Part shown: positions 37,564-38,387 of the stretch, piece by piece | Numbering within the stretch: position 1 is the first letter of the stretch | Layout: every line of letters starts with the position of its first letter | Assembly: GCA_001784435.1 (NCBI GenBank) | Contig: MFQZ01000001.1 | Span: forward strand, 82,340-146,339 | Source of the DNA: Candidatus Magasanikbacteria bacterium RIFOXYC2_FULL_42_28 | GTDB lineage: Bacteria > Patescibacteriota > Patescibacteriia > Magasanikbacterales > GWA2-37-8 | Reading direction: 5' to 3' | Length of the DNA stretch: 64,000 nucleotides | Translations under genes and position numbers: made by a program | The notes under the pieces: generated by a model | Databases searched by the model: none | Told to the model about the DNA's origin: nothing | Seen by the model: the letters and a program-made list of their open reading frames with translations, nothing else

Positions 37564-38172
37564 TTAAGCGTTATTAACATCGCTCAGCAATTGTGAATAG
37601 TATTTGAGTGGCTCAAACGGCAATTCACGCGATGAAACAATCATTAGATGCGGTTTATTTTGATATTCCGGCGCTCTTCTAATGTAAAAATATATCGATT
37701 GCCAAGGTAACATTCCATTGTTAAACATATATTTTATATCTTCCATAAATGGATGATTTGACCAATTTTCCATTAGGACAACCTGTTCTGATGCTAATTT
37801 AAAAAGATTTGATAAGGCGACCAAATGTCCATTGCCAGTTTTTATATGCATTATAACCGCTTGCGTAAAAGCTACATCAACTAACGGCAACTTAGAGGAG
37901 AGTGGCATGGTCATATCAAAGTTCTGCACTTTCCCTTTAAGCGATGGCGACCGTTCCACACAATAATCCAACTGCGCCTGCCCTCTGTCTACGCCATAAC
38001 TATCAATTTTAGGATCTAAAATATTTAAATTATATAAATGATCTCCGCCGCCGACTCCGCATTCAACAATTTTGGCCGGTTTTAGCAATAAAACTGTTTC
38101 ATACAACAACCTGTGGTTTGGATGCAAAGTTAAAATATTCGATTTTTTTGTCAAAACCTGATTTTCCATCAC
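37564..38172 (-). CDS. putative class I SAM-dependent methyltransferase, probably the 3' part of a gene split at a G10 tract
   Basis: Motif I-like KIVECGVGGGDHLYNL. Starts at GTG overlapping the stop of ORF 38169-38387. See repeat 38178-38187. Confidence 0.45.
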   Translation of the reverse strand: MMENQVLTKKSNILTLHPNHRLLYETVLLLKPAKIVECGVGGGDHLYNLNILDPKIDSYGVDRGQAQLDYCVERSPSLKGKVQNFDMTMPLSSKLPLVDVAFTQAVIMHIKTGNGHLVALSNLFKLASEQVVLMENWSNHPFMEDIKYMFNNGMLPWQSIYFYIRRAPEYQNKPHLMIVSSRELPFEPLKYYSQLLSDVNNA

Positions 38173-38387
38173 ATAATCCCCCCCCCCTCTTTAAGTTTTA
38201 GCGTATTAAATAATACTCCATTCTCCATTTCATTACGGTAATGATCATTATATGTTACCCAATTAAAATCATCATCCGGTGCATTTTTAAGCTTATTTTT
38301 AGTAACATAACTAAAATCGGGCGAACCTATTTTTATTCCAAACAAATTAAACACGTACTTAATTGTTGATTTTATTTTTTTTAACAT
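38169..38387 (-). CDS. 5' fragment (72 aa) of the same methyltransferase gene, terminated after a G10 tract
   Basis: Ends ...LKEGGGIM*. Adding one G fuses it in-frame to ORF 37564-38172. Confidence 0.4.
   Translation of the reverse strand: MLKKIKSTIKYVFNLFGIKIGSPDFSYVTKNKLKNAPDDDFNWVTYNDHYRNEMENGVLFNTLKLKEGGGIM
38178..38187 (-). repeat. homopolymeric G10 (C10 on + strand) tract at the junction of two ORF fragments
   Basis: Counted directly: 10 consecutive C at 38178-38187 in a ~36-38% GC context. Confidence 0.9.

What the first reader, a model, noticed from the sequence alone, without database searches (positions are those of the whole stretch)
37564..38387. Methyltransferase gene split by a G10 homopolymer: candidate phase-variable switch or frameshift error
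Ten consecutive G (coding strand) at 38178-38187 sit 3 codons before the stop of a 72-aa ORF. One extra G fuses it in-frame (…LKEGGGDYVMENQ…) to the downstream 202-aa methyltransferase-like ORF, giving a ~275-aa protein. A run of 10 G in a ~37% GC genome is unusual. Slipped-strand mispairing at such tracts is the standard mechanism for phase-variable glycan-modifying enzymes (for example LOS/capsule methyl- and glycosyltransferases in Campylobacter, Neisseria and Haemophilus). Given the Wzt carbohydrate-binding domain and several other methyltransferases, ON/OFF switching of a methyl modification would alter chain termination or antigenicity.
Basis: seen in the sequence. Interest (0 to 1): 0.55.

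Follow-up and report, generated by a model that had tools for sequence, protein, structure and literature searches.

The report
Poly-G tract splits glycan methyltransferase gene
A run of ten G's has put a conserved sugar-chain methyltransferase gene out of frame in an uncultured groundwater (CPR) bacterium, which looks like an on/off "phase-variable" surface gene caught in its off state, but the available assemblies cannot show that it switches.

Summary
A G10 run on the coding (-) strand at 38178-38187 is the only G/C run longer than 7 in the 64 kb. It splits one gene into a 72-aa ORF and a 201/202-aa ORF. G8, G11 or G14 restore a 273-275 aa protein. That protein aligns end to end with about 120 single-gene, roughly 265-aa class I SAM methyltransferases found in polysaccharide gene clusters.

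Both halves keep every family-invariant residue. No homolog lacks the N-terminal part. No homolog has the tract. At this site the family has a single Gly codon, so the tract is a lineage-specific expansion of an ancestral GAG-GGG-GAT.

The gene lies in a roughly 47-kb Wzm/Wzt-type glycan operon of a Candidatus Magasanikbacteria MAG from the Rifle aquifer, and no other gene there is broken.

All five public contigs read G10: the MAG scaffold and copies of it, a JGI assembly and a Logan assembly. They are the same clonal population (100% identical over 17-20 kb). An assembler artefact is therefore unlikely, but tract-length heterogeneity remains untested.

Best reading: a hypermutable, candidate phase-variable glycan methyltransferase in the OFF phase, analogous to Campylobacter jejuni Cj1426. 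It is a new member of a known kind and moderately interesting, because nothing like it is documented in CPR bacteria.

The parts
38178..38187 (-). G10 homopolymer (C10 on the + strand). It covers the last base of GAG (Glu67) and three GGG codons. It is the frameshift site.
   Evidence: It is the only G/C run of 8 or more in 64 kb. The same G10 is present in the Logan and JGI assemblies.
38169..38387 (-). 5' fragment of the methyltransferase gene: a 72-aa ORF (P0121, OGH88688.1, locus tag A3J93_01165). It encodes the family's conserved N-terminal DDFxW..Y..Y motif and ends ...LKEGGGIM*.
   Evidence: D39, W43, Y46 and Y50 are invariant across the family.
37564..38172 (-). 3' fragment of the methyltransferase gene: 202 aa from GTG at 38172, or 201 aa from ATG at 38169 (P0001, A3J93_01160). 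It holds the Rossmann-type SAM-binding core (E109-x-G-x-G-G-G-D116).
37564..38387 (-). The whole frameshifted gene. With G11 it encodes a 274-aa class I SAM-dependent methyltransferase of an uncharacterised, glycan-cluster-associated family.
   Evidence: AlphaFold model pLDDT 87.7, with residues about 30-72 ordered.
38167..38171 (-). TGATG stop/start overlap. In the G10 frame the TGA of the 72-aa ORF overlaps the ATG of the 201-aa ORF. The G-tract lies 8 nt upstream of that ATG and makes an SD-like purine-rich motif (AGAGGGGGGGGGG).
   Evidence: Read directly from the sequence. SD-like motifs are otherwise rare here, 3 of 56 genes. That this allows reinitiation is an inference only.
34771..36039 (-). 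Context: Wzt ABC-transporter ATPase with a C-terminal carbohydrate-binding domain (PF14524).
38405..39562 (-). Context: DegT/RfbH-like PLP enzyme immediately upstream of the split gene.
37094..37561 (-). Context: NUDIX hydrolase (GDP-mannose mannosyl hydrolase-like) immediately downstream. The split gene's stop and this gene's start are 2 nt apart.

Best explanation
The two ORFs are one gene for a roughly 274-aa SAM-dependent glycan methyltransferase, put out of frame by a lineage-specific poly-G tract. The tract arose by slipped-strand expansion of an ancestral single glycine codon context (GAG-GGG-GAT, G5) to G10. Lengths G8, G11 and G14 give a full-length enzyme with one to three extra glycines in a surface loop. 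All other lengths, including the sequenced G10, stop translation after 72 residues. A run of ten G's is intrinsically prone to +/-1 slippage at replication, so the population should keep producing ON (G11) and OFF (G9, G10) variants. The dominant genotype in the sequenced sample is OFF. The expected consequence is presence or absence of one methyl group on the polysaccharide made by this Wzm/Wzt operon. In Campylobacter, such methyl switching changes phage and antibody recognition. Shown here: the tract, the frameshift, the single-gene nature of the family, the intactness of both halves, the lineage-specific origin of the tract, and the glycan context. Inferred: that the tract switches at useful frequency, that switching is selected, and what the methyl group does.
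For: (1) G8, G11 and G14 restore one ORF. (2) The fused product covers 96-100% of 260-273 aa single-gene homologs, E down to 1e-107. 118 of 119 homologs carry the N-terminal motif encoded by the 72-aa ORF, and none is shorter than 231 aa. (3) All 46 invariant family columns are kept in both halves, so inactivation is recent or reversible. (4) The two extra Gly residues are absent in 119/119 and 118/119 homologs. No homologous gene in 48 loci has a G/C run longer than 7, and some read GAGGGGGAC at the site. (5) GGG is only 14% of Gly codons, and 81 other Gly runs in the window never make a G-run longer than 6, so the tract is not a coding by-product. (6) It is the only break in an operon of about 45 genes and the only G/C run longer than 7. 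(7) The tract sits at 25% of the gene, in a predicted loop between helix 46-57 and hairpin 72-81, where extra glycines are tolerable. (8) An IDBA-UD MAG scaffold, a JGI assembly and a Logan assembly all give G10. The data are HiSeq 2000, where homopolymer indel artefacts are mainly a problem above about 14 nt. (9) Direct precedent: Cj1426 capsule 6-O-methyltransferase, G10 ON / G9 OFF, linked to phage resistance. (10) In-frame G9-G11 tracts occur in glycan genes next to homologs of this methyltransferase in other uncultured bacteria.
Against: No tract-length variation was observed. All five public contigs read G10, no G5-G14 variant protein exists in the catalogue, and those contigs are one clonal population, so this is absence of data rather than a negative test. 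No close relative (above 62% identity) exists to show a conserved or variable tract. There is only one such tract in 64 kb, so no 'phasome' is seen. Phase variation has not been documented in CPR/Patescibacteria. The captured state is OFF, which is equally what a dead gene looks like.
Confidence: 0.5

Rival explanations
1. Recent, effectively permanent loss of function. Slippage at an accidentally long G-run inactivated a dispensable accessory methyltransferase. The gene is a young pseudogene, and any reversion is incidental rather than a selected switch.
For: The only state ever seen is OFF (G10) in all five contigs. The operon has at least three other methyltransferases, so redundancy is possible. 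CPR genomes are known for gene loss (general knowledge). A chance run of 10 or more G/C somewhere in a genome of about 1 Mb is not negligible (0.016-0.08 per 64 kb).
Against: There is no second lesion, and every invariant residue is retained in both fragments. Getting from G5 to G10 needs several slippage steps through both ON and OFF lengths, which implies the lineage has tolerated toggling rather than suffered one hit. The GGG codon is disfavoured elsewhere. A G10 tract remains mechanistically reversible whatever its history.
Confidence: 0.25
2. Consensus sequencing or assembly error. The real genome has G11 (or G8) and an intact gene.
For: Homopolymers are the classic site of indel errors and PCR stutter in library preparation. 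All assemblies may derive from the same one or two Illumina libraries (100% identity), so their agreement is not fully independent.
Against: The five public contigs all give G10: the IDBA-UD MAG scaffold (per-sample assembly method) and copies of it, a JGI assembly and a Logan assembly. HiSeq 2000 four-colour chemistry has low indel rates, with spurious homopolymer indels mainly above about 14 nt. No other gene in the operon of about 45 genes shows a frameshift.
Confidence: 0.1
3. The gene is expressed despite G10. One route is RNA-polymerase slippage or -1 ribosomal slippage on the G-run, which would make some full-length protein. The other is a two-piece enzyme, with the 201-aa core translated by termination-reinitiation at the TGATG overlap with the G-tract acting as a Shine-Dalgarno-like element.
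For: In the G10 frame the upstream stop overlaps the downstream ATG (TGATG), and AGAGGGGGGGGGG lies 8 nt upstream of that ATG. The anti-SD mechanism seems to be used for at least one gene (AAAGGAGGGG before 51617-55237). The downstream frame is -1, and every GGG codon re-pairs perfectly after a 1-nt slip. The break falls in a predicted surface loop, where fragment complementation is conceivable.
Against: None of about 120 homologs is split or lacks the N-terminal segment. Known bacterial transcriptional slippage sites are A/T runs, and G_GGG_GGG is not a known efficient slippery heptamer (general knowledge). The TGATG overlap follows trivially from the Val-Met codons of the conserved ...DYVME... 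stretch. SD use is rare in this operon, 3 of 56 genes.
Confidence: 0.1

Closest known systems
Campylobacter jejuni Cj1426 (capsule heptose 6-O-methyltransferase), phase-variable through an intragenic poly-G tract
   Same: A SAM-methyltransferase gene inside a surface-polysaccharide locus that also holds heptose-pathway-type genes (a SIS isomerase and a GHMP kinase are in the window). It has an intragenic poly-G of about 10 where one G more or less toggles the reading frame (10 G ON, 9 G OFF in Cj1426; PMC3546167).
   Different: No sequence relationship was tested or claimed. Here G10 is the OFF length and G11/G8 are ON. Switching, the methylated sugar and the phenotype (phage F336 resistance for Cj1426) are experimentally shown for Cj1426 and wholly untested here. 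The host is a free-living or episymbiotic groundwater CPR bacterium, not an animal pathogen.
Simple-sequence-repeat contingency loci ('phasome') of Campylobacter, Neisseria, Haemophilus and Helicobacter
   Same: Homopolymeric G/C tracts of 8 or more in the 5' part of genes for surface-glycan modification. The tract is absent from orthologs in other lineages. Both ORF halves are intact (PMC6321876, PMC2831843, listed).
   Different: Those genomes carry tens of such tracts, with documented length polymorphism between and within strains. Here there is a single tract in 64 kb and no polymorphism data.
Chain-terminating methyltransferases of ABC-transporter-dependent O-antigen pathways (E. coli O8/O9a WbdD with Wzt carbohydrate-binding module)
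   Same: A methyltransferase encoded in a Wzm/Wzt operon whose Wzt carries a C-terminal carbohydrate-binding domain (PF14524). In the E. coli systems that domain recognises the methylated chain end (general knowledge).
   Different: The protein here is a single-domain enzyme of about 274 aa, without the coiled-coil or kinase modules of WbdD. Four methyltransferases are present in the operon, and nothing indicates which one, if any, caps the chain.
Uncharacterised ~265-aa class I SAM-methyltransferase family (Pfam PF13847/PF08241-type hits; for example the Pseudanabaena sp. UWO311 protein P0023)
   Same: End-to-end alignment at 42-63% identity, with all invariant residues shared. Homologs also lie in polysaccharide clusters next to NDP-sugar enzymes and glycosyltransferases.
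   Different: Only this member is split, and only this member has the GGG-GGG insertion.

Membership tests
Class I (Rossmann-fold) SAM-dependent methyltransferase | Glycine-rich motif I (E/DxGxGxG) and the acidic residue at the end of strand 2 that bind SAM | tested here: met
   E109-C-G111-V-G113-G-G115-D116, D134 and D158 are invariant in the 24-sequence alignment.
Class I (Rossmann-fold) SAM-dependent methyltransferase | Seven-stranded alpha/beta fold | tested here: met
   AlphaFold model pLDDT 87.7, pTM 0.84, with alternating strand/helix core. All top Foldseek PDB hits are SAM methyltransferases, but only at TM 0.4-0.5 and 21% identity or less.
Class I (Rossmann-fold) SAM-dependent methyltransferase | Significant match to a curated methyltransferase profile | tested here: inconclusive
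   The fused query itself gives no Pfam hit at E<=0.01 and no NCBIfam hit. Most homologs carry precomputed PF13847/PF13649/PF08241 hits. The family profile hits PDB methyltransferases only at 3e-5 or weaker.
Single-gene ~265-aa glycan-cluster methyltransferase family (this gene's orthologous group) | One continuous ORF covering the N-terminal DDFxW..Y..Y motif plus the methyltransferase core | tested here: not met
   In the window the ORF is broken at G10. 118 of 119 homologs are continuous and carry the motif. The reconstructed G11 sequence aligns end to end. By sequence it is a member, but as a frameshifted allele.
SSR-mediated phase-variable (contingency) gene | Hypermutable simple repeat (G/C run of about 8 or more) within the ORF or promoter | tested here: met
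   G10 at codons 67-70 of 274.
SSR-mediated phase-variable (contingency) gene | A change of repeat number toggles between a full-length and a truncated product | tested here: met
   G8, G11 and G14 give the full-length product. G9, G10, G12 and G13 truncate it.
SSR-mediated phase-variable (contingency) gene | Tract-length polymorphism within a population or between closely related strains | tested here: inconclusive
   Only G10 occurs in the five public contigs, and no variant proteins are catalogued.
SSR-mediated phase-variable (contingency) gene | High-frequency reversible switching with a phenotype | not testable with these tools
   This needs read pile-ups, culture or reporter assays, and the organism is uncultured.
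WbdD-type O-antigen chain terminator | Multidomain architecture (methyltransferase with or without kinase, plus a coiled-coil that sets chain length) | tested here: not met
   It is a single compact domain of 274 aa in the model, with no further Pfam domains.
WbdD-type O-antigen chain terminator | Methylates the non-reducing terminus that the Wzt carbohydrate-binding module recognises | not testable with these tools
   Only co-location with a Wzt that carries PF14524 is shown.

The most novel reading that the evidence does not exclude
Candidate Phyla Radiation (Patescibacteria) bacteria are tiny, largely episymbiotic organisms with no described contingency loci. Under this reading they use poly-G slipped-strand phase variation to switch a methyl decoration on a large Wzm/Wzt-exported surface glycan on and off. 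That would diversify the cell surface against phages or for host-cell attachment. Intragenic poly-G tracts would then be a general feature of glycan loci in uncultured environmental bacteria, as the in-frame G9-G11 tracts in the Verrucomicrobiales locus L025 and in L003/L053 hint.
Probability: 0.4. Interest if true: 0.55.

Novelty: new member of a known kind. Interest (0 to 1): 0.35.

Why it matters
If the tract really switches, this would be a first concrete contingency locus in a CPR bacterium. It would show that stochastic surface-glycan variation, so far studied almost only in host-adapted pathogens, also operates in ultra-small groundwater bacteria, whose cell surface mediates attachment to hosts and exposure to phages. 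It also has a practical use. The test is cheap, because it only needs counts of tract lengths in existing Rifle time-series reads. The case also shows annotators that the two 'hypothetical proteins' (A3J93_01165 and A3J93_01160) are one methyltransferase gene. If the tract does not switch, the finding is simply a young pseudogene or a frameshift in a MAG and is of little consequence.

Tried and rejected
(1) I searched for the same locus in JGI metagenome contigs with the fused protein and with an exact flank pattern that allowed any tract length.

(2) An exact-sequence look-up of ten predicted products for G5-G14 found only the G10 72-aa ORF.

(3) I looked up the flanking NUDIX and DegT genes to find further contigs that might carry other tract lengths. 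They occur on the same five contigs.

(4) I tried to extend beyond the window ends to census more of the genome for G/C tracts. The left side gave only about 1.5 kb more, and the right-end protein is not on record, so I abandoned this.

(5) Foldseek against the PDB and a profile search of PDB sequences gave only generic class I methyltransferases, with no substrate assignment. NCBIfam has no model for the family.

(6) Promoter and terminator scans around the junction gave nothing above the shuffle background and no terminator. An internal regulatory element is therefore not indicated.

(7) Other simple-sequence repeats in the window (TRF) include none with a unit of 1-5 nt that would shift a frame.

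(8) I considered and rejected the idea that the tract merely encodes a poly-glycine linker. Codon usage and the family alignment argue against it.

(9) I considered and rejected two genuinely separate genes. No homolog is split, and the conserved N-terminal motif lies in the small ORF.

Full report
**1. The observation**

On the minus strand the sequence reads …CTT AAA GAG GGG GGG GGG ATT ATG TGA TGG AAA…. There are ten consecutive G at 38178-38187.

- The 72-aa ORF (38169-38387) ends two codons after the tract.
- A 202-aa (GTG) or 201-aa (ATG) ORF (37564-38172/38169) follows in the -1 frame.
- Replacing the tract in silico shows that G8, G11 and G14 give one ORF of 273-275 aa (…LKEGGGDYVMENQ… for G11). 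G9, G10, G12 and G13 truncate it.
- The window is 39.9% G+C.
- G/C run-length counts fall steadily (645, 150, 46, 5 and 1 for lengths 3-7), and then there is this single run of 10.
- The expected number of runs of 10 or more is 0.016 (iid) to 0.08 (Markov-1) per window.
- The tool's own shuffles for G9 are less extreme, with a mean of 0.32 matches, partly because they keep the tract's GG dinucleotides.

**2. One gene, not two**

The G11 product was searched against 5.8 billion proteins.

- The only identical hit is the 201-aa fragment itself (P0001), annotated as a hypothetical protein of Candidatus Magasanikbacteria bacterium RIFOXYC2_FULL_42_… (locus tag A3J93_01160).
- The next hits (up to 62% identity, E down to 1e-107) are 260-273 aa single proteins that cover 96-100% of the fusion.
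- In a 24-sequence alignment, 46 columns are invariant. These include D39, W43, Y46 and Y50, which are encoded by the small ORF, and the SAM-binding E109-x-G-x-G-G-G-D motif.
- Across 119 homologs, 118 carry the N-terminal DDFxW…Y…Y motif, and none is shorter than 231 aa.

The two ORFs are therefore the halves of one conserved gene, and neither half shows any further damage.

**3. Where the tract came from**

- At the junction the family reads …L-K/S-E/P-G-D-Y… with a single glycine.
- The two extra glycines of the G11 product are absent from 119/119 and 118/119 homologs.
- In 48 homologous genes from named genomes, no G/C run exceeds 7. Several read GAG-GGA/GGG-GAT/GAC at the site, for example GAGGGGGAC in L024.
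- GGG is only 14% of glycine codons in the window. None of 81 Gly-Gly(+) runs in the other 54 ORFs yields a G-run longer than 6.

The tract is therefore a lineage-specific expansion of an ancestral G5 by slippage, not a way of encoding a glycine linker. Getting from G5 to G10 implies several steps through both in-frame and out-of-frame lengths.

**4. What the protein is**

- The AlphaFold model is confident (pLDDT 87.7, pTM 0.84). Residues about 30-72 are ordered, and the tract-encoded glycines lie in a loop between helix 46-57 and a beta-hairpin at 72-81, ahead of a Rossmann-type core.
- Foldseek and profile searches of the PDB return only generic class I SAM methyltransferases at low similarity.
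- Pfam and NCBIfam do not name the query itself.
- Homologs lie in polysaccharide clusters beside NDP-sugar nucleotidyltransferases, dehydratases, sugar C-methyltransferases and glycosyltransferases.

In the window the gene sits in a same-strand operon of about 47 kb and about 45 genes. That operon contains:
- a Wzy_C-like protein, Gmd and an Fcl-like protein;
- Wzm, and Wzt with a carbohydrate-binding domain;
- many GT2 genes, plus GT10 and GT11;
- three DegT-type enzymes and a transketolase-like pair;
- SIS and GHMP-kinase genes of the heptose type;
- three other methyltransferases.

Every other gene appears full-length. The function 'methylation of a sugar of this exported glycan' is inferred from context. 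The acceptor is unknown.

**5. Is the frameshift real?**

- The MAG comes from Illumina HiSeq 2000 2x150 data assembled per sample with IDBA-UD (PMC5079060).
- A Logan assembly of SRR2090171 and a JGI assembly (3300002209) contain the locus. Both are 100% identical to the window over 20.2 and 17.6 kb, G10 included.
- Illumina homopolymer indel artefacts are mostly a problem above about 14 nt (PMC8808543).

A consensus error is therefore unlikely, about 0.1. It is not excluded, because the assemblies probably share libraries.

**6. Does it switch?**

This could not be tested.

- An exact look-up of the products expected for G5-G14 finds only the G10 form.
- The flanking NUDIX and DegT genes occur on exactly the same five contigs as the split ORFs.
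- The JGI metagenome collection available here does not hold the locus.
- No relative closer than 62% identity exists.

This is absence of data from what is effectively one population, not evidence for stability.

**7. Mechanism and rivals**

- **Best reading (0.5).** This is a hypermutable intragenic poly-G tract, that is, a candidate contingency locus, captured in the OFF phase. The arguments for it are the canonical gene class and tract position, the intact halves, the multi-step origin of the tract, and the fact that it is the only break in the operon.
- **Young pseudogene without selected switching (0.25).**
- **Consensus error (0.1).**
- **Expression despite G10 (0.1).** In the G10 frame the stop of the small ORF overlaps the ATG of the large one (TGATG). 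The G-tract forms an SD-like element 8 nt upstream, in an operon where SD motifs are otherwise rare, 3 of 56 genes. Reinitiation giving a two-piece enzyme is therefore conceivable, as is transcriptional or -1 ribosomal slippage on the G-run. No homolog supports a split architecture.

**8. Comparison with known systems**

- The closest functional analogue is C. jejuni Cj1426. It is the capsule heptose 6-O-methyltransferase, ON with 10 G and OFF with 9 G, and its switching confers phage F336 resistance (PMC3546167).
- The general class is the SSR 'phasome' of Campylobacter, Neisseria and Haemophilus (PMC6321876) and homopolymeric tracts as regulators (PMC2831843), both listed.
- The defining structural features of a contingency gene, namely the tract and frame toggling, are met here. 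The defining behavioural features, polymorphism and reversible switching, are untested.
- A WbdD-like chain-terminator role is not supported by the architecture (single domain).
- A full-text search found only one paper that mentions both Patescibacteria and phase variation, and only incidentally.

**9. Verdict**

The 'split methyltransferase' part is fully confirmed, and the 'phase-variable switch' part remains a well-founded hypothesis.

It is a new member of a known kind. Interest is moderate (0.35), because the phenomenon is textbook in pathogens but undocumented in CPR bacteria, and because the decisive test (tract-length counts in existing reads) is easy.

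Noticed in passing
L025:534-544 and L025:7128-7137 (Verrucomicrobiales MAG JARGPI010000049.1): Two long poly-G tracts flank the methyltransferase homolog (4890-5690). A G11 lies in frame in a 409-aa GT4-like glycosyltransferase (…YRGGGCVEE…). A G10 lies in frame in a 620-aa multi-pass membrane protein (…VRGGGRRRG…). A change of +/-1 truncates both, so this is a possible multi-gene 'phasome' in an environmental glycan locus.
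   Followed up: partly
L053:2997-3005 (identical in L054, L055 and L003:1928-1936): A G9 lies in frame in a 435-aa gene without Pfam hits, inside the glycan cluster that holds homolog P0017. The gene calls are the same in contigs from three samples (JGI, ENA, Logan), so no length variation is seen there either.
   Followed up: partly
L031:~5190-5240 (Bdellovibrionota MAG JAWKOD010000003.1): The tblastn alignment of this homolog shows an in-frame stop (THTP*NQRRDY) a few residues before the same G-D-Y junction. It may be an independently disrupted copy.
   Followed up: no
window:1-51499 (minus strand): This is a very large same-strand glycan operon of about 47 kb and about 45 genes for a CPR genome. 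It holds a Wzy_C-like protein, Gmd and Fcl-like proteins, Wzm and Wzt with a carbohydrate-binding module, many GT2 genes, GT10 and two GT11 (fucosyltransferase-like). It also holds three DegT/RfbH-like enzymes, a split transketolase-like pair, a WavE-like protein, SIS and GHMP-kinase heptose-type genes, an asparagine-synthase-like amidotransferase and four methyltransferases.
   Followed up: partly
window:51564-51632: A perfect 15-nt tandem repeat of 4.6 copies (unit GGTTGAGGGTTAGCC on the minus strand, 100% matches). It spans the stop codon and 3' end of the 1206-aa ORF and the intergenic region before the Wzy_C-like gene.
   Followed up: no
window:51617-55237 (-), especially 53565-53662: A 1206-aa ORF with a weak Lamin-tail-domain hit and a repetitive proline-rich stretch (…PPPPIPPPPHP…TPPPPPPTPQP…). 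It is preceded by the only strong Shine-Dalgarno motif in the window (AAAGGAGGGG). It is probably an abundant surface protein. The neighbouring 738-aa ORF has three PG_binding_1 domains and an fn3 domain.
   Followed up: partly
window, upstream regions of 56 ORFs: Shine-Dalgarno-like motifs are rare, found in 3 of 56 genes. Most starts are preceded by A/T-rich sequence, and many genes overlap by 1-4 nt, which suggests leader-independent or coupled translation in this organism.
   Followed up: no
window:1691-2518 (-) and about 47080-47330 (-): An AbiEii toxin-like gene (PF08843) lies at the left edge of the operon. A small HTH_17 (excisionase-type) gene sits between the Fcl-like gene and wzm. 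These could be mobile-element or defence remnants inside the glycan locus.
   Followed up: no
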